Virus genome (UHGV): UHGV-0254305
Source of the DNA: a virus
Length of the DNA: 10,104 bases
Direction: 5' to 3' (one strand)
The position numbers and the translations under genes are program-made. The notes under the pieces are model-generated. The model was not told where the DNA came from. It saw nothing but the letters and a program-made list of their open reading frames with translations, and ran no database searches. This document shows, piece after piece, positions 1 to 10,104 of the stretch (position 1 is the first letter of the stretch; every line of letters starts with the position of its first letter).

Positions 1-191
1 GCCGTTACGCACCACCCCGTCAGTAGCTGAACAGGAGGGACAGCTGATAGAAACAGAAGCCACTGGAGCACCTCAAAAACACCATCATACACTAAATCAG
101 TAAGTTGGCAGCATCACCCAAAGGCCTTTAAAAATTATGTCTCCTACCATTCTGTTAATTTCAAAATCACTTAACTGTGAATAATCCATTG

Positions 192-368
192 TCATTTCCT
201 CGCACGATATCTTAGCCACCGGATATCCCACAGGTGAGCTGTGTAATTGAAGGTTTTTACGTCAGATTCTTTTGGGATTGGCTTGCGTTTATTTCTGGAG
301 CGTTTCGTTGGAAGGTATTTGCAGTTTTCGCAGATGATGTCGGTGAAACTTCGTCGCTGTCGCCTCAT
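192..368 (-). CDS. ninE: NinE-family small basic protein (58 aa)
   Basis: Minus-strand ORF whose internal ATG at 368 overlaps the methyltransferase stop as ATGA (366-368 / 365-367). The translation [58 protein letters not shown] matches my memory of lambda NinE (CxxC, basic). The ORF track extends it to 458 using an upstream start inside the preceding gene. Confidence 0.75.
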
Positions 369-892
369 GCCGCCCTCCTGACGCCCTGCCCGATCGCCAT
401 CAATGCCGCTTTGGATACGGTAGTAAACATCCGTCGAGGACTGATGAACGGTCGCCAAATCAGCAGCATGGAGCCTTTGCTGTTTCCCTTCTTCTCCAGC
501 CCTGTCGATGGTTCGATAAAATTAATCCGTCCATCAGTGATAATGCGAACTTCGTCGACACTCTCCAGAGCCTTGCTGAACCATCCGACTGACATATCCT
601 CTGGCACAAGCATAACTACCGTCTGTCGCTGTTGTATGCACTGCTCAGCAGCTTTTTCCACCCACGGCCTGATATTGCTGTACGGTGGGTTATTCCAGAT
701 TGCACCGTGGCTTACCCACTCAGAATTGAGCGCGTCGTCGGCCTCAGTTAGCCAGTGAGCACACAGAGCATTTTTGTCGCTCGCTGCCGAATCCAGCCAG
801 AATCCAAACTCAATATCCAGTGCATCAAAAAGCCAAAGCGGCGTTTGCCAGCAGTCCTTGTCGTGTGCTGGCGTATTTGATTTGATAGTCAT
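365..892 (-). CDS. Phage DNA N6-adenine methyltransferase (Dam-like, 175 aa)
   Basis: Translation [26 protein letters not shown]...WNNPPYS contains the DxxWQTP motif and the NPPY catalytic motif IV of amino-methyltransferases. Its start ATG (890-892) overlaps the ninB stop (889-891) as ATGA. It sits where lambda carries ninC/ninD. Confidence 0.8.
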
Positions 893-1329
893 GCAGCCCG
901 ATCTCCCCATCTCGCTTTCCACTCCAGAGCCAGTCTCGCTTCGTCTGACCACTTAACGCCACGCTCTGTGCCGAATGCCTGTATAAGCTCTAATAGCTCC
1001 GCAAATTCGCCTACACGCATCCTGCTGGTTGACTGGCCTATTACCACAAAGCCATTCCCGGCAAGGTTAGGAACAACATCCTGCTGCTTTAATGCTGCGG
1101 TAAACACACACTTCCAGCTTTCTGCATCCAGCCAGCGACCATGCCATTCAACCTGACGAGAGACGTCACCTAAGCAGGCCCATAGCTTCCTGTTTTGGTC
1201 TAAGCTGCGGTTGCGTTCCTGAATGGTTACTACGATTGGTTTGGTTGGGTCTGGAAGGATTTGCTGTACTGCGTGAATAGCGTTTTGCTGATGTGCTGGA
1301 GATCGAATTTCAAAGGTTAGTTTTTTCAT
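889..1329 (-). CDS. ninB: NinB recombination protein (146 aa)
   Basis: Translation MKKLTFEIRSPAHQQNAIHAVQQILPDPTKPIVVTIQERNRSLDQNRKLWACLGDV... matches lambda NinB from memory. ATG at 1327-1329 (minus) is preceded by a GAGGGA ribosome-binding site; the ORF-track start at 1347 is a TTG six codons upstream. Confidence 0.9.
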   Translation of the reverse strand: MKKLTFEIRSPAHQQNAIHAVQQILPDPTKPIVVTIQERNRSLDQNRKLWACLGDVSRQVEWHGRWLDAESWKCVFTAALKQQDVVPNLAGNGFVVIGQSTSRMRVGEFAELLELIQAFGTERGVKWSDEARLALEWKARWGDRAA

Positions 1330-1341
1330 GACTTCCCTCTC

Positions 1342-1378
1342 CCCCAAATAAAAAGGCCTGCGATTACCAGCAGGCCTG
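1342..1378 (-). terminator. tR2: Intrinsic terminator, tR2-like (between ren and ninB)
   Basis: On the minus strand: stem AGGCCTGC / GCAGGCCT (1354-1377) followed by TTTTTATTT. This is the position where lambda has tR2. Confidence 0.6.
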
Positions 1379-1402
1379 TTATTAGCTCAGTAATGTAGAT
1401 GG

Positions 1403-1693
1403 TCATCTTTTAACTCCATATACCGCCAATACCCGTTTCATCGCGGCACTCTGGCGACACTCCTTAAAAATCAGGTTCGTGCTCATCTTTCCTTCCCGTT
1501 CTTCCCTGGTAGCAAACCGGTAATACACCGTTCGCCAGACCTTACCTTCGATAACCAGAAGACCTGCCCGTGCCATTTTAGCCGCGGCCTGATTTATGCT
1601 GGTTACTGTTGCGCCTGTTAGCGCGGCAACGTCCGGCGCACAGAAGCTATTATGCGTCCCCAGGTAATGAATAATTGCCTCTTTGCCCGTCAT
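1403..1693 (-). CDS. ren: Ren protein (96 aa)
   Basis: Translation MTGKEAIIHYLGTHNSFCAPDVAALTGATVTSINQAAAKMARAGLLVIEGKVWRTVYYRFATREEREG... matches lambda Ren from memory. ATGA overlap with the P stop. Confidence 0.9.
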   Translation of the reverse strand: MTGKEAIIHYLGTHNSFCAPDVAALTGATVTSINQAAAKMARAGLLVIEGKVWRTVYYRFATREEREGKMSTNLIFKECRQSAAMKRVLAVYGVKR

Positions 1694-2391
1694 ACACTTG
1701 CTCCTTTCAGTCCGAACTTAGCTTTAATTTCTGCGATCTTCGCCAGAGCCTGTGCACGATTTAGAGGTCTACCGCCCATAACAGGAAGTTGTTTTACTGG
1801 TTCAGGTATCGTCTCACCACGGTTAATTCGCGCTGTCATACAGGTCAGTTCATCGGCAGCCTTGCGCCGTAATTCCGCATCAGTAAGCGCATTGGCCCGC
1901 ATGTTCTGATACAGGTTGGTAACCAGCCAGTAGTGCGCGTTTGATTTCCACGGATAAGACTCCGCATCCGGATACAGGCCTCGCTTCCGGCAATACTCGT
2001 AAACCATATCAACCAGCTCGCTGACGTTTGGCAGTCCGGCGATAACGGATGCTTCTTCCCGGCACCATGCAACAAACTGCCCGGGTGATGGCAGAAATGG
2101 TCGATTCTGCCGACGGGCTACGCGCATTCCTGCGTTAACCTGTTCCATTGTGGTGATCCCGTTTTCCCGGAAAGCCAGAACCCACTGGCGGCGGATTTCG
2201 TTCAGTTCGTTCTGGTCACGGTTAGCCAGACTCGCCGGGAAAGTTGCCAGTAACTGGCTGAACACACCGTTGATGATCTGCGCTACCTGCTGTACCTGTG
2301 GCTTTTCGTCGTACTGTTCCGGCATGTTGTTGGCGATCCGACGCATCTGCTCACGGTCAAAGTTAACCATCTGTGCGGCGATGTTTTTCAT
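1690..2391 (-). CDS. P: Replication protein P (DnaB helicase loader, 233 aa)
   Basis: Translation MKNIAAQMVNFDREQMRRIANNMPEQYDEKPQVQQVAQIINGVFSQLLATF... matches lambda P from memory. ATGA overlap with the O stop at 2388-2391. Confidence 0.95.
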   Translation of the reverse strand: MKNIAAQMVNFDREQMRRIANNMPEQYDEKPQVQQVAQIINGVFSQLLATFPASLANRDQNELNEIRRQWVLAFRENGITTMEQVNAGMRVARRQNRPFLPSPGQFVAWCREEASVIAGLPNVSELVDMVYEYCRKRGLYPDAESYPWKSNAHYWLVTNLYQNMRANALTDAELRRKAADELTCMTARINRGETIPEPVKQLPVMGGRPLNRAQALAKIAEIKAKFGLKGASV

Positions 2392-3287
2392 AGATCCACC
2401 CCGTAAATCCAGTCAGTGTTTGTCAGGTCGAGTTTTGGTTTTCCGGCTGTCACGCCAGCCTGTTGCTTGTTACGGTTGATTTCGAGCTGGGTCCACTTGT
2501 CGCGGAGTTTGGCCGGACTCAGCACGTTACCGGACCAGAAGTTGTCCTGGCAGGCCCAGCGGAAAAGCACACACATATCGCGGTGGTTACGTCCGTCACG
2601 TTCACGCATCAGGCGGATATCGTTAGCCCACCCAGCAAAATTCGGTTTTCTGGCTGATGGCGCGATGGTCTTCACCATGTCAAACATCCACTCTGCGGCG
2701 GTCAGGTCTTCTGCTGTTCCCCACTTACTGCCGCTCTGAATTGCAGCATCCGGTTTAACCACAGAAAGATCGTTTTCTGGCTGGTCAGAGGATTCGCCAG
2801 AATTCTCGGACGAATAATCTTTTCTTTTTTCTTTTGTAATAGTGTCTTTTGTGTCCCCCTGTTTTGAGGGATAGCAATCCCCCAATTTGAGGGATGTTTT
2901 ATCCCTCGTTTTAGGGGATTTTCCCTCGTTTTGAGGGATACACCATTCTGAGATGTTTTTATTTGGTCCAAACATGCCGCCTTGCTGCTTGATAATATTC
3001 ATTCTGACGAGTTCTAACTTGGCTTCATTGCACCGTTTGACAGGTAACTTTGTAATCTCGCTAAGTTGAGAATCGGTGATTCTGTCCATTGGTTTATTCC
3101 ACCCATAGGTTTTACGCAGAATGGCAAGCAGCACTTTAAACTGTCGCTTGGTCAGATCTGCGCCCGAATAAGCCTCAAGCAGCATATTTGATAGTCTGGC
3201 GTAACCATCATCGAGATCTGCCACATTACGCTCCTGTCCGGCAAAGTTACCTCTGCCGAAGTTGAGTATTTTTGCTGTATTTGTCAT
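2388..3287 (-). CDS. O: Replication initiator protein O (299 aa)
   Basis: Translation MTNTAKILNFGRGNFAGQERNVADLDDGYARLSNMLLEAYSGADLTKRQFKVLLAILRKTYGWNKPMDRITDSQLSEITKLPVKRCNEAKLELVRMNIIKQ... matches lambda O from memory. AGGAG ribosome-binding site upstream; the ori iterons are embedded in the middle of the gene. Confidence 0.95.
   Translation of the reverse strand: MTNTAKILNFGRGNFAGQERNVADLDDGYARLSNMLLEAYSGADLTKRQFKVLLAILRKTYGWNKPMDRITDSQLSEITKLPVKRCNEAKLELVRMNIIKQQGGMFGPNKNISEWCIPQNEGKSPKTRDKTSLKLGDCYPSKQGDTKDTITKEKRKDYSSENSGESSDQPENDLSVVKPDAAIQSGSKWGTAEDLTAAEWMFDMVKTIAPSARKPNFAGWANDIRLMRERDGRNHRDMCVLFRWACQDNFWSGNVLSPAKLRDKWTQLEINRNKQQAGVTAGKPKLDLTNTDWIYGVDL
2810..2938. repeat. ori: Lambda-type replication origin: four ~18-bp iterons plus adjacent AT-rich region
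   Basis: Four tandem iterons of the form TCCCTC-N-GAGGGA at 2854-2871, 2878-2894, 2901-2918 and 2922-2938, each internally palindromic. They are flanked at 2810-2853 by an AT-rich tract (ttttcttttttcttttgtaatagtgtcttttg). This is the classic organisation of ori-lambda inside O. Confidence 0.85.
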
Positions 3288-3290
3288 AAT
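3262..3290 (+). promoter_or_regulatory. Po promoter for oop RNA
   Basis: -35 TTGAGT (3262-3267), 17-bp spacer, -10 CATAAT (3285-3290); transcription would start near 3297 and run antisense into the cII 3' end. Confidence 0.5.
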
Positions 3291-3296
3291 GACTCC

Positions 3297-3372
3297 TGTT
3301 GATAGATCCAGTAATGACCTCAGAACTCCATCTGGATTTGTTCAGAACGCTCGGTTGCCGCCGGGCGTTTTT
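3297..3372 (+). ncRNA. oop: oop antisense RNA (about 76 nt, antisense to the cII 3' end)
   Basis: Lies downstream of the Po-like promoter and ends at a GC-rich hairpin (ttgccgccgggcg) followed by TTTTTTATT at about 3350-3372. Position relative to cII and O matches lambda oop. Ends are approximate. Confidence 0.55.
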
Positions 3373-3613
3373 TATTGGTGAGAATCGCAGCAACTTGTCG
3401 CGCCAATCGAGCCATGTCGTCGTCAACGACCCCCCATTCAAGAACAGCAAGCAGCATTGAGAACTTTGGAATCCAGTCTCTCTTCCACCTGCTGATCTGC
3501 GACTTATCAACTCCCACAGCTTCCGCTGTCTTCTCAGTTCCAAGCATTGCGATTTTGTTAAGCAACGCACTCTCGATTCGTAGTGCCTCGTTGCGTTTGT
3601 TTGCACGAACCAT
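3320..3613 (-). CDS. cII: Transcriptional activator CII (97 aa)
   Basis: Translation MVRANKRNEALRIESALLNKIAMLGTEKTAEAVGVDKSQISRWKRDWIPKFSMLLAVLEWGVVDDDMARLARQVAAILTNKKRPAATERSEQIQMEF matches lambda CII from memory. ATG at 3611-3613 (minus). Confidence 0.95.
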   Translation of the reverse strand: MVRANKRNEALRIESALLNKIAMLGTEKTAEAVGVDKSQISRWKRDWIPKFSMLLAVLEWGVVDDDMARLARQVAAILTNKKRPAATERSEQIQMEF

Positions 3614-3626
3614 ATGTAAGTATTTC
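3588..3626 (+). promoter_or_regulatory. PRE-like CII-dependent promoter
   Basis: TTGC-N6-TTGC CII-binding direct repeat at 3591-3604 on the plus strand, overlapping the cII start codon region as in lambda PRE. Transcription would run toward cro (antisense) and cI. The -10 and start site are not resolved. Confidence 0.5.
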
Positions 3627-3692
3627 CTTAGATAACAATTGATTGAATGTATGAAAATAAATGCATACACCATAGGTGTGGTTTAATTGGAT

Positions 3693-3724
3693 GCCCTTTT
3701 TCAGGGCTGGGATGTGTAAGAGCG
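3693..3724 (-). promoter_or_regulatory. nutR: nutR (boxA + boxB N-utilisation site)
   Basis: On the minus strand: boxA CGCTCTTACA (3715-3724) and the boxB hairpin GCCCTGAAAAAGGGC (3693-3707), downstream of cro. Just beyond it is an ACACC-TAT-GGTGT hairpin in the tR1 position. Confidence 0.8.
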
Positions 3725-3732
3725 GGAATGTC

Positions 3733-5087
<1,355 letters not shown>

Positions 5088-5137
5088 TCCCCACCTCAAT
5101 CTCGATAACCAAAAAACAAACTATTTTCCGTTTAAAA

Positions 5138-5206
5138 ACAATGGAGTTTGTTTTTCACGCCCCTTTTTTACAATATTTCTTGTTTACAACATACAATCTT
5201 TCTTGT
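5138..5206. promoter_or_regulatory. OL: 434-type left operators OL3, OL2, OL1
   Basis: ACAA-N6-TTGT sites at 5138-5151 (ACAATGGAGTTTGT), 5170-5183 (ACAATATTTCTTGT) and 5193-5206 (ACAATCTTTCTTGT), upstream of nutL and N. Confidence 0.85.
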
Positions 5207-5211
5207 AATTT
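5183..5211 (+). promoter_or_regulatory. PL promoter
   Basis: -35 TTTACA (5183-5188), 17-bp spacer, -10 TAATTT (5206-5211), overlapping OL1/OL2; transcribes toward nutL and N. Confidence 0.5.
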
Positions 5212-5251
5212 TAAGCCATCAGCAGGACGCACTGACCACCATTGAAGGTGA

Positions 5252-5282
5252 TGCTCTTAAAAATTAAGCCCTGAAGAAGGGC
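5252..5282 (+). promoter_or_regulatory. nutL: nutL (boxA-like + boxB)
   Basis: boxB hairpin GCCCTGAAGAAGGGC at 5268-5282, preceded by the boxA-like TGCTCTTAA at 5252-5260 (consensus CGCTCTTA). Confidence 0.8.
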
Positions 5283-5440
5283 AGCATTCAAAGCAGAAGG
5301 CTTTGGGGTGTGTGATACGAAACGAAGCATTGGCCGGAAGTGCGAATCCGGATTAGCTGCAAATGAGCCAATCGTGGGGTGTTTTCGTTCAGGACTACGA
5401 CTCACACACACCACCAAAGCTAACTGACAAGAGAATCCAG

Positions 5441-5764
5441 ATGGATGCACAAACACGCCGCCGCGAACGTCGCGCAGAGAAACAGGCTCAATGGAAAGTA
5501 GCAAATCCCCTGTTGGTTGGGGTAAGCGCAAAACCAGTTAACCGCCCTATTCTCTCGCTGAATCGCAAACCGAAATCACGAGTAGAAAGCGCACTGAATC
5601 CGATAGACCTTACAGTGCTGGCTGAATACCACGAACAGATTGAAAGCAACCTGCAACGTATTGAGCGCAAGAATCAGCGCACATGGTACAGCAAGCCTGG
5701 CGAACGCGGCATAACATGCAGTGGACGCCAGAAAATTAAGGGAAAATCGATTCCTCTTACCTAG
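5441..5764 (+). CDS. N: Antitermination protein N (107 aa)
   Basis: Translation MDAQTRRRERRAEKQAQWKVANPLLVGVSAKPVNRPILSLNRKPKSRVESALNPIDLTVLAEYHEQIESNLQRIERKNQRTWYSKPGERGITCSGRQKIKGKSIPLT carries the arginine-rich boxB-binding motif and matches lambda N with a few substitutions (from memory). The ORF-track start at 5363 is an upstream in-frame extension. Confidence 0.95.
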   Translation: MDAQTRRRERRAEKQAQWKVANPLLVGVSAKPVNRPILSLNRKPKSRVESALNPIDLTVLAEYHEQIESNLQRIERKNQRTWYSKPGERGITCSGRQKIKGKSIPLT

Positions 5765-6316
5765 TTACTTAGATATTGGCCTTGGCTTTATCTCAATATT
5801 ATATGGATCATAGCTGGCAACTAATTCAGTCCAGTAAATATCCTCAATAGGGAATAATATATGCTTCCCGTTCCATCGGGAAAAAGTTTTGTTCAACACA
5901 CCAAGCTCAATCAACTCACTAATGTATGGGAATTGTTTTGATGTAACCACATACTTCCTGCCTTCATTAAGGGCTGCGCACAAAACCATAGATTGCTCTT
6001 CTGTAAGGTTTTGAATTACCGATCGCACTTTATCGTTTTGCATCTTAATGCGTTTTCTTAGCTTAAATCGCTTATATCTGGCGCTGGCAATAGCTGATAA
6101 TCGATGCACATTAATTGCTAGCGAAAATGCAAGAGCAAAGACGAAAACATGCCACACATGAGGAATACCGATTCTCTCATTAACATATTCAGGCCAGTTA
6201 TCTGGGCTTAAAAGCAGAAGTCCAACCCAGATAACGATCATATACATGGTTCTCTCCAGAGGTTCATTACTGAACACTCGTCCGAGAATAACGAGTGGAT
6301 CCATTTCTATACTCAT
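5765..6316 (-). CDS. sieB: Superinfection exclusion protein B (membrane protein, 183 aa)
   Basis: Translation MSIEMDPLVILGRVFSNEPLERTMYMIVIWVGLLLLSPDNWPEYVNERIGIPHVWHVFVFALAFSLAINV... has two hydrophobic helices and matches lambda SieB from memory. Convergent with N, with stops at adjacent bases 5764/5765. ATG at 6314-6316; the ORF track starts at a TTG one codon upstream (6319). Confidence 0.85.
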   Translation of the reverse strand: MSIEMDPLVILGRVFSNEPLERTMYMIVIWVGLLLLSPDNWPEYVNERIGIPHVWHVFVFALAFSLAINVHRLSAIASARYKRFKLRKRIKMQNDKVRSVIQNLTEEQSMVLCAALNEGRKYVVTSKQFPYISELIELGVLNKTFSRWNGKHILFPIEDIYWTELVASYDPYNIEIKPRPISK

Positions 6317-6443
6317 CAAACTGTAGGGGTTGTAATAGTTTATCCGATTTCTCGCTGTAGGGGTACACGAGAACCACCGAGCCTGATGTGGTTAAAAGAC
6401 AGGCACAATCTTTACTACCGCAATCCACTATTTAAGGTGATAT

Positions 6444-6530
6444 ATGGAAGAAGAATTTGAAGAGTTCGAAGAGCATCCGCAGGATGTAATGGAACAGTAC
6501 CAGGACTATCCGTATGACTACGACTATTGA
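6444..6530 (+). CDS. Small acidic protein, lambda orf28-like (28 aa)
   Basis: ATG at 6444 with an AAGGTGA ribosome-binding site at 6434-6440. Translation MEEEFEEFEEHPQDVMEQYQDYPYDYDY. Below the ORF-track length cutoff; in the position of lambda orf28 between sieB and ral. Confidence 0.45.
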   Translation: MEEEFEEFEEHPQDVMEQYQDYPYDYDY

Positions 6531-6693
6531 TAAGAATCAATGGTGTGGACAATTCAAGCGATGCAATGGATGCAAGCTGCAATCGGAATGCATGGTTAAG
6601 CCTGAAGAAATGTTTCCTGTAATAGAAGATGGGAAATATGTCGATAAATGGGCAATACGAACGACGGCAATGATTGCCAGAGAACTTGGTTAA
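6514..6693 (+). CDS. ral: Ral restriction-alleviation protein (59 aa as read here)
   Basis: Translation MTTTIDKNQWCGQFKRCNGCKLQSECMVKPEEMFPVIEDGKYVDKWAIRTTAMIARELG matches lambda Ral from memory. It overlaps the orf28 3' end in another frame. I recall lambda Ral as 66 aa; here no start codon exists further upstream before the in-frame stop at 6487. Confidence 0.8.
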   Translation: MTTTIDKNQWCGQFKRCNGCKLQSECMVKPEEMFPVIEDGKYVDKWAIRTTAMIARELG

Positions 6694-6850
6694 CAGAACA
6701 ACAAAGCTGCCTGATAGTGGCCTTTATTTTTGGCATAAATAACAGAATAAACACTGCACTGTGTATTCATTCCAACGAGTGAATACACGGAGCAATGTCG
6801 CTCGTAACTAAACAGGAGCCGACTTGTTCTGATTATTGGAAATCTTCTTT

Positions 6851-6877
6851 GCCCTCCAGTGTGAGGGCGATTTTTTA
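6851..6877 (+). terminator. Intrinsic terminator candidate upstream of ea10 (tL2-like)
   Basis: Stem GCCCTC (6851-6856) / GAGGGC (6863-6868) with loop CAGTGT, followed by GATTTTTTAT. Confidence 0.55.
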
Positions 6878-6896
6878 TCTATGAGGATATGAACAG

Positions 6897-7265
6897 ATGT
6901 CAAACATCAAAAAATACATCATTGATTACGACTGGAAAGCATCAATAGAAATTGAAATCGACCATGACGTAATGACAGAGGAAAAACTTCACCAGATTAA
7001 TAATTTCTGGTCAGACTCTGAATACCGACTCAATAAACACGGCTCTGTATTAAATGCTGTATTAATCATGCTGGCGCAATATGCTCTGCTTATAGCAATT
7101 TCGAAAGACTTAAATGCATATGGTGTTGTTTGTGAGTTCGACTGGGATGATGGAAATGGTCAGGAAGGATGGCCTCCAATGGATGGTAGTGAAGGAATAA
7201 GAATTACCGATATCGATACATCAGGAATATTTGATTCAGATGATATGACTATCAAGGCCGCCTGA
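6897..7265 (+). CDS. ea10: Ea10 (Ssb-like early protein, 122 aa)
   Basis: Translation MSNIKKYIIDYDWKASIEIEIDHDVMTEEKLHQINNFWSDSEYRLNKHG... matches lambda Ea10 from memory. GAGGA ribosome-binding site upstream. Confidence 0.9.
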   Translation: MSNIKKYIIDYDWKASIEIEIDHDVMTEEKLHQINNFWSDSEYRLNKHGSVLNAVLIMLAQYALLIAISKDLNAYGVVCEFDWDDGNGQEGWPPMDGSEGIRITDIDTSGIFDSDDMTIKAA

Positions 7266-7290
7266 GTGCGGTTTTACCGCATACCAATAA

Positions 7291-7315
7291 CGCTTCACTC
7301 GAGGCGTTTTTCGTT
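7291..7315 (+). terminator. Intrinsic terminator candidate between ea10 and cIII (tL3-like)
   Basis: Stem CGCTTC / GAGGCG (one G-U pair) with loop ACTC, followed by TTTTTCGTT. Confidence 0.4.
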
Positions 7316-7337
7316 ATGTATAAATAAGGAGCACACC

Positions 7338-7502
7338 ATGCAATATGCCATTGCAGGGTGGCCTGTTGCTGGCTGCCCTTCCGAATCTTTACTTGAACGA
7401 ATCACCCGTAAATTACGTGACGGATGGAAACGCCTTATCGACATACTTAATCAGCCAGGAGTCCCAAAGAATGGATCAAACACTTATGGCTATCCAGACT
7501 AA
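7338..7502 (+). CDS. cIII: CIII (FtsH/HflB inhibitor, 54 aa)
   Basis: Translation [54 protein letters not shown] matches lambda CIII. AAGGAG ribosome-binding site at 7326-7331. Confidence 0.95.
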   Translation: MQYAIAGWPVAGCPSESLLERITRKLRDGWKRLIDILNQPGVPKNGSNTYGYPD

Positions 7503-7614
7503 ATTCACTATCGCCACTTTTATTGGCGATGAAAAGATGTTTCGTGAAGCCGTCGACGCTTATAAAAAATGGATATTAATGCTGAAACTGAGATCAAGCA
7601 AAAGCATTCACTAA
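7471..7614 (+). CDS. kil: Kil (host cell-division inhibitor, 47 aa)
   Basis: Translation [47 protein letters not shown] matches lambda Kil from memory. It overlaps the cIII 3' end by 32 nt in another frame, as in lambda. Confidence 0.9.
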
Positions 7615-7985
7615 CCCCCTTTCCTGTTTTCCTAATCAGCCTGGCATTTCGCGGGCGATATTTTCACAGCTATTTCAGGAGTTCAGCCATGAACGCTTAT
7701 TACATTCAGGATCGTCTTGAGGCTCAGAGCTGGGCGCGTCACTACCAGCAGATCGCCCGAGAAGAGAAAGAGGCAGAACTGGCAGACGACATGGAAAAAG
7801 GCCTGCCCCAGCACCTGTTTGAATCGCTATGCATCGATCATTTGCAACGCCACGGGGCCAGCAAAAAAGCCATTACCCGTGCGTTTGATGACGATGTTGA
7901 GTTTCAGGAGCGCATGGCAGAACACATCCGGTACATGGTTGAAACCATTGCTCACCACCAGGTTGATATTGATTCAGAGGTATAA
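7569..7985 (+). CDS. gam: Gam (RecBCD inhibitor; 138-aa long form, 98-aa short form from internal ATG at 7689)
   Basis: Translation ...[98 protein letters not shown] matches lambda Gam from memory. The internal start at 7689 has a strong CAGGAG ribosome-binding site; the 7569 start has none. Confidence 0.9.
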
Positions 7986-7990
7986 AACGG

Positions 7991-8776
7991 ATGAGTACAG
8001 CACTCGCAACGCTGGCTGGGAAGCTGGCTGAACGAGTCGGCATGGATTCTGTCGACCCACAGGAACTGATCACCACTCTTCGCCAGACGGCATTTAAAGG
8101 TGATGCCAGCGATGCGCAGTTCATCGCATTGCTGATCGTCGCCAACCAGTACGGTCTTAATCCGTGGACGAAAGAAATTTACGCCTTCCCTGATAAGCAG
8201 AACGGCATCGTTCCGGTGGTGGGCGTTGATGGCTGGTCCCGCATCATCAACGAAAACCAGCAGTTTGACGGCATGGACTTTGAACAGGACAACGAATCCT
8301 GCACATGCCGGATTTACCGCAAAGACCGCAATCATCCGATCTGCGTTACCGAGTGGATGGATGAATGCCGCCGCGAACCATTCAAAACCCGCGAAGGCAG
8401 AGAAATCACGGGGCCGTGGCAGTCGCATCCCAAACGGATGTTACGGCATAAAGCCATGATTCAGTGTGCCCGTCTCGCCTTCGGATTTGCTGGTATCTAT
8501 GACAAGGATGAAGCCGAGCGCATTGTCGAAAATACCGCATACACTGCAGAACGTCAGCCGGAACGCGACATCACTCCGGTTAACGATGAAACCATGCAGG
8601 AGATTAACACTCTGCTGATCGCCCTGGATAAAACATGGGATGACGACTTATTGCCGCTCTGTTCCCAGATATTTCGCCGCGACATTCGCGCATCGTCAGA
8701 ACTGACACAGGCCGAAGCAGTGAAAGCTCTTGGATTCCTGAAACAGAAAGCCACTGAGCAGAAGGTGGCAGCATGA
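7991..8776 (+). CDS. bet: Bet (Red-beta single-strand annealing protein, 261 aa)
   Basis: Translation [99 protein letters not shown]... matches lambda Beta from memory. Confidence 0.97.
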
Positions 8777-9453
8777 CACCGGACATTATCCTGCAGCGTA
8801 CCGGGATCGACGTGAGAGCTGTCGAACAGGGGGATGATGCATGGCACAAATTACGGCTCGGCGTCATCACCGCTTCAGAAGTTCACAACGTGATAGCAAA
8901 GCCCCGATCAGGAAAGAAGTGGCCTGACATGAAAATGTCCTACTTCCACACCCTGCTAGCTGAGGTTTGCACCGGTGTGGCTCCGGAAGTTAACGCTAAA
9001 GCGCTGGCCTGGGGAAAACAGTACGAGAACGACGCCAGAACCCTGTTTGAGTTCACTTCCGGCGTAAATGTTATTGAATCCCCGATCATCTATCGCGACG
9101 AAAGTATGCGCACCGCCTGCTCTCCCGATGGTTTATGCAGTGACGGCAATGGCCTTGAGCTGAAATGCCCGTTTACCTCCCGGGATTTCATGAAATTCCG
9201 GCTCGGTGGTTTCGAGGCCATAAAGTCGGCTTACATGGCCCAGGTGCAGTACAGCATGTGGGTGACGCGAAAAGATGCCTGGTACTTTGCCAACTATGAC
9301 CCGCGTATGAAGCGTGAAGGACTGCATTATGTCGTGGTCGAACGGGATGAAAAATACATGGCTGGTTTTGACGAAATGGTGCCAGAGTTCATCGAAAAAA
9401 TGGACGAGGCACTGGCTGAAATTGGTTTTGTATTTGGGGAGCAATGGCGATGA
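8773..9453 (+). CDS. exo: Exo (Red-alpha 5'-3' exonuclease, 226 aa)
   Basis: Translation [92 protein letters not shown]... matches lambda exonuclease from memory. ATGA overlap with the bet stop. Confidence 0.97.
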
Positions 9454-9632
9454 AACATCCTCACGATAATATCCGCGTAGGCACGATCACTTTCGTCTAC
9501 TCCGTTACGAAGCGAGGCTGGGTATTTCCCGGCCTTTCTGTTATCCGAAATCCCCTGAAAGCACAGCGGCTGGCTGAGGAGATAAATAATAAACGGGGAG
9601 CTGTATGCACAAAGCATCTCCCGTTGAGTTAA
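9450..9632 (+). CDS. Lambda orf60a-like hypothetical protein (60 aa)
   Basis: ATG at 9450 overlaps the exo stop as ATGA and lies 8 nt downstream of a GGGGAG ribosome-binding site. Translation [60 protein letters not shown]. The ORF-track start at 9444 is too close to the ribosome-binding site. Confidence 0.8.
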
Positions 9633-9796
9633 GAACGAGTATCGAGATGGCACATAGCCTCGCTCAAATTGGAGTCAGGTTTGTGCCAATACCAGTAGAA
9701 ACAGACGAAGAATTTCATACGTTAGCCGCATCCCTTTCACAAAAGCTGGAAATGATGGTGGCGAAAGCAGAAGCAGATGAGAGAGACCAGGTATGA
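9605..9796 (+). CDS. Lambda orf63-like hypothetical protein (63 aa)
   Basis: ATG at 9605 with a GGGGAG ribosome-binding site at 9594-9599. Translation [63 protein letters not shown]. Confidence 0.8.
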   Translation: MHKASPVELRTSIEMAHSLAQIGVRFVPIPVETDEEFHTLAASLSQKLEMMVAKAEADERDQV

Positions 9797-9806
9797 CAAC
9801 CACGGA

Positions 9807-9992
9807 ATGCATTTTTCTGGCAGCGGGCTTCATATTCTGTGTGCTTATGCTTGCCGACATGGGACTTGTTCAATGACACCTCAGCAGGAAAACGCCCTTC
9901 GCAGCATTGCCCGTCAGGCTAATTCTGAAATCAAAAAAGCCAGACAGCAGTTTCCGGATAAAAACGTCGATGACATTTGCCGTAGCGGGTAA
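9807..9992 (+). CDS. Lambda orf61-like hypothetical protein (61 aa); alternative organisation possible
   Basis: ATG at 9807 gives MHFSGSGLHILCAYACRHGTCSMTPQQENALRSIARQANSEIKKARQQFPDKNVDDICRSG (61 aa, matching the name of lambda orf61). The ribosome-binding site is weak, and an overlapping ATGA-coupled 27-aa ORF exists (see findings). Confidence 0.6.
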   Translation: MHFSGSGLHILCAYACRHGTCSMTPQQENALRSIARQANSEIKKARQQFPDKNVDDICRSG

Positions 9993-10104
9993 TGACTCCA
10001 ACTTATTGATAGTGTTTTATGTTCAGATAATGCCCGATGACTTTGTCATGCAGCTCCACCGATTTTGAGAACGACAGCGACTTCCGTCCCAGCCGTGCCA
10101 GGTG

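What the first reader, a model, noticed from the sequence alone, without database searches (positions are those of the whole stretch)
1..195. Left end resembles p15A/pACYC-type plasmid sequence, fused to a 32-aa ORF coupled to ninE
Bases 1 to about 119 (gccgttacgcaccaccccgtcagtagctgaacaggagggacagctgatagaaacagaagccactggagcacctcaaaaacaccatcatacactaaatcagtaagttggcagcatcaccc) match, from memory, the sequence next to the p15A replicon in pACYC184-type vectors, where it is followed by the cat promoter region rather than by what follows here. The similarity ends near 119/120. A minus-strand 32-aa ORF (195..97, [32 protein letters not shown]) starts with an ATGA overlap on the ninE stop and terminates inside the plasmid-like segment. 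This is either natural shared ancestry between a cryptic plasmid and a lambdoid nin region, a recombination event, or a chimeric/vector-contaminated assembly. Lambda ninF is not present after ninE.
Basis: partly seen in the sequence, partly recalled or inferred. Interest (0 to 1): 0.65.

Follow-up and report, generated by a model that had tools for sequence, protein, structure and literature searches.

The report
IS1 insertion truncating prophage gene ninX
The "plasmid-like" left end of the window is the last 118 bases of the common insertion sequence IS1, which has landed in the dispensable ninX gene of a lambda-like prophage; cloning vectors such as pACYC184 carry the same bases as an IS1 leftover, so this is ordinary.

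Summary
Window 1-118 matches the left (IRL) end of IS1 at every base. The same 118 bases occur in a p15A/cat vector-type plasmid, where they are a 144-nt IS1 remnant next to the cat promoter, as at the IS1-catA1 junction of plasmid R100. The break is at 118/119, exactly at the IS1 terminus.

From 119 to 9987 the window is the early region of a lambdoid prophage, 98-99% identical to prophages in 109 complete E. coli genomes. The 32-aa ORF is NinX residues 1-26 plus six residues (VMLPTY) read from IS1. Lambda has no ninX after ninE, which is ordinary mosaicism.

It cuts a 71-aa orf61-like gene. The window looks like a short-read contig that breaks in IS1 on both sides.

Both junctions recur in independent public assemblies, including an E. 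coli isolate draft and gut metagenomes. Vector contamination and shared plasmid/phage ancestry are rejected.

Not testable here: target-site duplications and what lies beyond each IS1. Low interest.

The parts
1..118 (-). Left (IRL) end of insertion sequence IS1, nt 1-118 of the element read on the minus strand. The body of the element lies beyond the window start.
   Evidence: Exact substring of annotated IS1B copies (L002:1201-1318; R100 L005:1527-1644). 118/118 in the alignment.
96..118 (-). IS1 terminal inverted repeat IRL (GGTGATGCTGCCAACTTACTGAT)
   Evidence: Read directly from the sequence. Identical to the end of annotated IS1B, whose 9-bp target duplication CAGATTGGT in L002 marks the terminus.
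1..63 (-). First 21 codons of insA (VASVSISCPSCSATDGVVRNG), running off the window
   Evidence: Translation equals the N-terminus of the annotated IS1B transposase.
119..127 (.). CAAAGGCCT: the 9 bp expected to be duplicated at the far (IRR) side of this IS1 copy if it is a simple insertion
   Evidence: Position follows from the uninterrupted target in L003 (...TTACTTGCC|CAAAGGCCTTTAAAA). The duplication itself lies outside the window and is untested.
97..195 (-). ninX'::IS1 fusion ORF: NinX residues 1-26 (195..118) plus VMLPTY and a stop read from IS1
   Evidence: Protein alignment with intact NinX (113/127 aa annotations). Intact NinX matches PF10765 at 7e-17; the fragment has no Pfam hit.
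192..368 (-). ninE (58 aa), intact
   Evidence: PF05322 NinE, E = 3e-42, full length. Annotated as NinE in L001 and L003.
365..892 (-). Phage Dam-family N6-adenine methyltransferase (where lambda has ninC/ninD)
   Evidence: PF05869, E = 6e-65. RefSeq annotation in L003.
889..1329 (-). ninB
   Evidence: PF05772, E = 2e-54.
119..9987 (.). 9,869-bp early region of a lambdoid prophage: ninX', ninE, dam, ninB, ren, P, O, cII, cro, cI, N, sieB, ral, DUF2528, cIII, kil, gam, bet, exo, DUF1317, DUF1382, orf61-like'
   Evidence: 98-99% identity over 117-9987 to prophages in 109 complete E. coli genomes and to phage Chlobot; 92% coverage by lambda imm434. Gene names from L003.
9873..9992 (+). Truncated orf61-like gene: 38 of 71 codons, then G and a stop from IS1
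   Evidence: The intact 71-aa gene is L003:12758-12973. The target is cut after ...GCCGTAGCG. The exact 39-aa product was reported on 7 contigs; the 4 retrieved all show the junction.
9988..10104 (-). Right (IRR) end of a second IS1 copy (GGTAATGACTCCAACTTATTGAT...). It has the same orientation as the left copy and its body lies beyond the window end.
   Evidence: Exact substring of L002:551-667 and of R100 IS1. Positions 10104..10006 (-) encode the last 33 aa of InsB...HYLNIKHYQ.

Best explanation
A copy of IS1 has transposed into ninX, a dispensable nin-region gene of a lambdoid (imm434-like) E. coli prophage. IS1 is a 768-bp element whose DDE transposase InsAB' is made by a -1 frameshift.

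Shown here:
- The window starts 118 nt inside that IS1 copy. The element's IRL terminus abuts ninX codon 26, leaving a 32-aa NinX'-VMLPTY stub.
- A second IS1 copy in the same orientation interrupts the orf61-like gene at 9987/9988.
- IS1 lies in the same direction as the pR/nin transcript.

Inferred:
- InsAB' bound the terminal inverted repeats and joined the ends to a staggered cut in the target. This should have left an 8-9 bp duplication (expected CAAAGGCCT) on the far side.
- ninX is a null allele. Transcription towards rusA-ylcG-Q must now cross IS1.
- The window is probably a whole short-read contig that stops in the multicopy IS1 repeat on both sides.
- The resemblance to pACYC184 arises because that vector keeps a 144-nt stub of IS1 beside its cat gene.
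For: - Window 1-118 and 9988-10104 are exact substrings of annotated IS1 copies. They encode InsA residues 1-21 and the InsB C-terminus.
- The break is at the terminal IS1 nucleotide, and the phage sequence resumes exactly where an uninterrupted ninX continues.
- NinX residues 1-26 are identical to intact NinX, then diverge.
- IS1 is present in 5134 of 5426 complete E. coli genomes, with a median of 10 places.
- The ninX::IS1 junction product is on 4 contigs. These include the E. coli isolate draft GCA_005387365.1 (GDA08242.1) and a 48.7-kb metagenome contig that is 99.84% identical to window 1-9987 with the orf61-like gene intact.
- The right junction product is on 7 contigs.
- All seven related contigs that I retrieved (of the 11 reported) stop 26-137 nt inside IS1.
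- IS1 properties (768 bp, IRL/IRR, insA/insAB', 8-9 bp duplication) are from PMC12428005.
- The vector link rests.
Against: - Only the terminal 118 and 117 nt of the two IS1 copies are visible. Their completeness, the target duplications and what lies beyond them are not shown.
- No contig found anywhere crosses either IS1.
- Neither junction is present in 5,426 complete E. coli genomes, the phage and plasmid collections, the GTDB species representatives, IMG/VR or the JGI metagenomes. Simple insertion versus IS1-mediated deletion or rearrangement therefore cannot be decided.
Confidence: 0.93

Rival explanations
1. The IS1 copies mark the ends of a prophage remnant. IS1-mediated adjacent deletion, inversion or recombination between IS1 copies removed or moved the rest of ninX-rusA-Q-lysis-structural genes and/or the b-region/int side. 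In that case the junctions are rearrangement scars, not simple insertions.
For: - Two IS1 ends bracket just the early region.
- No far-side junction with the predicted duplication was found in IMG/VR.
- IS1 transposition is mainly replicative (PMC12428005). From general knowledge, replicative transposition favours adjacent deletions.
Against: - The far-side searches covered only one collection.
- A near-identical contig (L011) carries the ninX junction with an intact right side continuing for tens of kb. This fits independent single insertions.
- Nothing in the window requires a deletion.
Confidence: 0.2
2. The 9.87-kb segment with directly repeated IS1 ends is a mobile or autonomous unit. It could be a Tn9-like composite transposon. 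Alternatively it could be a 10.6-kb circle (one IS1 plus the segment) carrying ori-lambda, O, P, the immunity genes and the Red genes.
For: - Both IS1 ends have the same orientation, so the contig could close through a single IS1.
- The segment contains O and P.
Against: - The inner flanks differ (CAAAGGCCT versus GCCGTAGCG), so it is not a single insertion into a circle.
- Each junction occurs elsewhere without evidence of the other; L011 has only the left one.
- cI is intact, which from lambda biology would repress pR-dependent replication.
- No copy was found in the plasmid collection.
Confidence: 0.04
3. Vector contamination or a chimeric assembly joined pACYC184-type DNA to phage DNA, or a p15A-like cryptic plasmid and the nin region share ancestry.
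For: Window 1-118 is identical to a stretch of a p15A/cat vector-type plasmid.
Against: - The shared stretch is IS1, identical in thousands of natural replicons.
- Identity stops exactly at the IS1 terminus rather than continuing into the cat promoter.
- The window holds no RNAI and no cat.
- The other window end is the IRR end of IS1, which was not found in the fetched vector stretch L004.
- The same junction is in at least three independent assemblies made by different projects.
Confidence: 0.01

Closest known systems
IS1 (IS1 family; IS1A/IS1B-type copies of E. coli and Shigella chromosomes and R plasmids)
   Same: - The terminal 118 nt (IRL side) and 117 nt (IRR side) are identical to annotated IS1B copies.
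- The insA start and the insB end are present.
- The junctions sit at the terminal nucleotides.
   Different: Nothing differs in the visible parts. The 533 internal bases, the A6C frameshift site and the target duplications lie outside the window.
IS1 stub next to the cat gene in pACYC184-type p15A vectors (the IS1-catA1 junction, as in R100)
   Different: In the vector-type record the IS1 terminus is followed by the cat promoter, and on the other side only 144 nt of IS1 remain before replicon-side sequence. Here the terminus is followed by ninX and there is no vector sequence. The relation is common descent of the IS1 bases, not a plasmid-phage link.
Classical IS insertions in lambdoid phages (from memory: the IS1/IS2 polar insertions r14 and r32 in the lambda y-cII region; seen here: IS1 in the int gene of phage PhiR11_1_star)
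   Same: An IS1 copy sits inside a lambdoid genome and interrupts a gene of an early operon (for PhiR11_1_star).
   Different: The target differs (ninX, a gene of unknown function in the dispensable nin region). No phenotype is known.
NinX (PF10765, Phage_P22_NinX / DUF2591)
   Same: The first 26 residues are identical to intact NinX of E. coli prophages and Lambda_2E9-type phages. The position directly after ninE is the same.
   Different: Only 26 of 113 residues remain, fused to 6 residues from IS1. The fragment is a disrupted gene, not a new small protein.

Membership tests
IS1 insertion sequence | Terminal inverted repeats with the IS1 sequences (IRL GGTGATGCTGCCAACTTACTGAT, IRR GGTAATGACTCCAACTTATTGAT) | tested here: met
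   Window 118..96 (-) and 9988..10010 (+) carry them. The whole 118-nt and 117-nt ends are exact substrings of annotated IS1B copies.
IS1 insertion sequence | insA starts about 56 nt inside IRL and insB ends just inside IRR | tested here: met
   Positions 63..1 encode InsA residues 1-21. Positions 10104..10006 encode ...HYLNIKHYQ followed by TAA.
IS1 insertion sequence | Complete 768-bp element with the insA/insB' overlap and the A6C -1 frameshift site | not testable with these tools
   The interior lies outside the window. Every related contig retrieved also stops 26-137 nt inside IS1.
IS1 insertion sequence | 8-9 bp direct duplication of the target at both sides of one copy | not testable with these tools
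   Only one side of each copy is visible. The expected duplications are CAAAGGCCT and GCCGTAGCG. The predicted far-side junctions were not found in IMG/VR.
IS1 insertion sequence | The break in homology with the uninterrupted target falls exactly at the element's terminal base | tested here: met
   Alignment with intact ninX (L001, L003) and with IS1B.
pACYC184 / p15A vector sequence | Identity continues beyond the IS1 stub into the cat promoter on one side or the p15A replicon on the other | tested here: not met
   In L004 the 118 bases are followed by CGACGCACTTTGCGCC (cat promoter). In the window they are followed by CAAAGGCCTTTAAAA (ninX). The replicon side cannot be seen because the window starts there.
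pACYC184 / p15A vector sequence | ColE1/p15A-type replicon RNA (RNAI) or a cat gene nearby | tested here: not met
   Rfam finds RNAI in L004. In the window it finds only the lambda cIII thermoregulator. No cat ORF is present.
NinX (PF10765) | Full-length match to the Pfam model | tested here: not met
   Intact homologue: E = 7e-17 over 1-114 of 114 model positions. The window's 32-aa ORF has no hit; it keeps only residues 1-26. It is a gene remnant.
IS1 composite transposon (Tn9-like) | Two IS1 copies in direct orientation flanking a passenger segment | tested here: inconclusive
   The two visible ends are in direct orientation. Completeness of the copies, outer target duplications and movement as a unit are not visible. 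L011 has the left junction without the right one.

The most novel reading that the evidence does not exclude
The two co-oriented IS1 ends may bound a unit that moves or exists on its own. One form would be a Tn9-like composite transposon. The other would be a 10.6-kb IS1-closed circle carrying a lambdoid immunity/replication module (cI-cro-cII-O-P with ori) plus the Red recombination genes, in effect a natural IS1-borne lambda-dv-like element. A weaker variant is that both sites are true IS1 insertion hot spots in lambdoid prophages, since each junction recurs in backgrounds that are 2-4.4% diverged.
Probability: 0.04. Interest if true: 0.4.

Novelty: already known. Interest (0 to 1): 0.07.

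Why it matters
It matters little biologically. IS1 insertions into prophage accessory genes are routine in E. coli and Shigella, and ninX has no known function.

The practical value is as a caution. A perfect match to a cloning vector can be an IS1 stub (or a similar piece of a natural mobile element) that the vector itself inherited. Such a hit is not evidence of contamination.

It also flags that this window is bounded by IS1 on both sides. Its ends are therefore assembly breaks and not biological ends of the prophage.

Tried and rejected
- **Left-junction DNA searches.** Exact-pattern scans found nothing in the GTDB species representatives, IMG/VR or the JGI metagenomes.
- **Right-junction DNA searches.** The same three collections gave nothing.
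- **BLAST of 1-250 and 9805-10104.** No place spans either junction in the plasmid collection or the phage collection (1-250 only) or in 5,426 complete E. coli genomes (both queries). The one '100% covered' hit, H156, is two pieces spread over 829 bp, meaning an IS1 nearby and not this junction.
- **Exact-product look-ups.** The 32-aa (ATG 195) and 44-aa (GTG 231) versions of the fusion ORF and the 71-aa alternative start at 9777 gave nothing. Only the 30-aa (ATG 189) and 39-aa products were on record.
- **Far-side junctions.** The predicted sequences (target duplication plus the other IS1 end) were absent from IMG/VR.
- **Literature.** A search for 'NinX' returned only nickel-nitrogen chemistry and other unrelated papers.
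- **Repeats.** The repeat finder with a 12-nt seed did not report the imperfect IRL/IRR pair; they were identified by eye and by exact matching instead.
- **Considered and rejected.** Vector contamination, p15A/phage shared ancestry, and the 32-aa ORF as a genuine small gene coupled to ninE.

Full report
**What is at 1-195.** The first 118 bases of the window match the IRL end of insertion sequence IS1 at every base. They are an exact substring of a chromosomal IS1B copy (E. coli 14EC033, L002:1201-1318). That copy is delimited by its own 9-bp target duplication, CAGATTGGT. They are also an exact substring of the IS1 beside catA1 in plasmid R100 (L005). Read on the minus strand, 118..96 is the IS1 terminal repeat GGTGATGCTGCCAACTTACTGAT. 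Positions 63..1 encode the first 21 residues of InsA, identical to the annotated transposase. BLAST of 1-250 hits at least 5000 plasmid records and 5134 of 5426 complete E. coli genomes (median 10 places per genome). The feature under these hits is annotated as IS1 family transposase.

**Why it looked like pACYC184.** I rebuilt from memory a 564-nt stretch of pACYC184: replicon side, IS1 stub, cat promoter and the start of cat. I searched it against the plasmid collection.
- One record, a 13-kb engineered plasmid filed under Streptococcus mutans (NZ_CP044494.1), matches all 564 nt at 100%.
- Natural R plasmids (R100, pHCM1 and many others) match only from position 69 on, where the annotation is IS1B plus catA1.
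- In the vector-type record the window's 118 bases are present exactly. They are followed by the cat promoter, and an RNAI gene of a ColE1/p15A-type replicon lies about 700 nt on the other side.

pACYC184's cat gene comes from Tn9 (PMC4574204). I infer that the stub came into the vector together with that cat gene. It is not p15A sequence.

**The junction and the 32-aa ORF.** From 119 onward (117 in BLAST, because the last two IS1 bases CC equal the target) the window is 100% identical to the ninX-ninE region of many lambdoid phages and prophages. The uninterrupted target reads ...TTACTTGCC|CAAAGGCCTTTAAAA. The ORF 195..97 consists of NinX residues 1-26 followed by VMLPTY and a stop supplied by IS1. 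Intact NinX (113 aa) is a full-length PF10765 match, while the stub has no family hit. The ATGA overlap with the ninE stop is real. Annotators differ on the NinX start: ATG 195, ATG 189 or GTG 231. Lambda's homology stops at 195 because lambda has ninF there rather than ninX. This is normal mosaicism, not a loss.

**The rest of the window.** Positions 119-9987 form the early region of a lambdoid prophage. The genes are ninE, a Dam-family methyltransferase, ninB, ren, P, O, cII, cro, a LexA-family cI, N, sieB, ral, DUF2528, cIII, kil, gam, bet, exo, DUF1317, DUF1382 and an orf61-like gene. This segment is 98-99% identical to prophages in 109 complete E. coli genomes and to phage Chlobot. Lambda imm434 covers 92% of the window.

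Every alignment stops at 9987. Positions 9988-10104 are the IRR end of IS1, again an exact substring of annotated copies, and they encode the last 33 residues of InsB. This second copy has the same orientation as the first. It cuts a 71-aa orf61-like gene after codon 38. The window is therefore [...IS1 IRL] - 9,869 bp of phage - [IRR IS1...].

**Independent occurrences.**
- No record spans either junction in the three BLAST collections or the three scanned contig collections.
- The exact 30-aa product of the ninX junction is on four contigs. One is a 41-kb contig of the E. coli isolate draft GCA_005387365.1 (protein GDA08242.1). It has a different immunity region and is 98% identical in the shared parts, with the nearest mismatch 119 nt from the junction. 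Another is a 48.7-kb gut-metagenome contig, 99.84% identical to window 1-9987, in which the orf61-like gene is intact. A third is a Logan contig at 100% identity.
- The 39-aa product of the right junction is on seven contigs. The four retrieved are 95.6-100% identical to the window, and one of them lies in a recE-containing prophage.
- All seven contigs that I retrieved end 26-137 nt inside IS1. The likely reason is that short-read assemblers break at multicopy IS elements.

From this I infer that the window is such a contig. I also infer that the two insertions were separate events, with the ninX insertion present in a lineage that lacks the other.

**Mechanism and consequence.** This paragraph is inferred from established IS1 biology (PMC12428005). 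InsAB' binds the terminal repeats and inserts the element with an 8-9 bp target duplication. IS1 is oriented with the pR/nin transcript, so transcription towards rusA-ylcG-Q has to cross it. From classical genetics (memory) IS1 is polar, and N-modified polymerase can read through such blocks. ninX is inactivated, and the nin region is dispensable in lambda. None of this was tested here.

**What remains open.** The far sides of both IS1 copies are invisible. Simple insertion is my preferred reading. IS1-mediated deletion or rearrangement (about 0.2) and a composite transposon or IS1-closed circle (about 0.04) cannot be separated with the data available. Vector contamination is effectively excluded (about 0.01), for four reasons:
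- The break is exactly at the IS1 terminus.
- The window's other end is the IRR end of IS1, which is not in the fetched vector stretch (L004).
- The window holds no RNAI and no cat.
- The junction recurs in assemblies made by different projects.

**Verdict.** This is an ordinary IS1 insertion allele of a prophage accessory gene. It is already known in kind and of low interest.

Noticed in passing
window 9988-10104 (junction at 9987/9988): The right end of the window is the IRR end of a second IS1 copy, in the same orientation as the left one. It cuts a 71-aa orf61-like gene after codon 38. The window is bracketed by IS1 on both sides and is probably a whole short-read contig.
   Followed up: yes
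L012 (GCA_005387365.1 contig) and L007 (ENA ERZ773139 contig) versus window 119-3400 and 7731-9987: Each IS1 junction recurs at the identical base and orientation in prophage backgrounds that differ by 2% (L012; nearest mismatch 119 nt away, different immunity region) or 4.4% (L007; nearest mismatch 184 nt away, recE-type context). This could reflect one old insertion spread by mosaic recombination, or IS1 insertion hot spots. I did not resolve which.
   Followed up: partly
window 4683-5087 (+): A 134-aa ORF sits directly downstream of cI, where lambda has rexA/rexB. It has no Pfam hit and matches only phrog_2651 (unknown function). Its N-terminus is hydrophobic and looks like a signal peptide (by eye only). 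It may be a lysogen-expressed moron.
   Followed up: partly
window 7325-7383 (+): Rfam finds the lambda cIII thermoregulator element (RF01804, 88.5 bits) at the start of cIII. It is the only Rfam hit in the window.
   Followed up: no
window 365-892 (-): A Dam-family N6-adenine methyltransferase (PF05869) lies between ninB and ninE, where lambda has ninC and ninD. This is a common mosaic alternative.
   Followed up: no
L006 (phage PhiR11_1_star, PV340548.1) 1-1100: This deposited lambdoid phage genome carries an IS1 (InsB is annotated) directly adjacent to a shortened integrase gene. It is another example of IS1 inside a lambdoid phage, at a different site.
   Followed up: no
L003:12758-12973 and cluster 2: Several NCBI records name the 71-aa orf61-like phage protein 'cell division protein ZapA'. 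Pfam gives no hit and PHROGs lists it as unknown function, so the name looks like over-annotation.
   Followed up: no
L004 (NZ_CP044494.1): A 13-kb plasmid filed in PLSDB as a natural Streptococcus mutans plasmid contains a pACYC184-type cassette: an RNAI replicon, an IS1 stub and catA1. It is therefore probably an engineered shuttle vector.
   Followed up: partly
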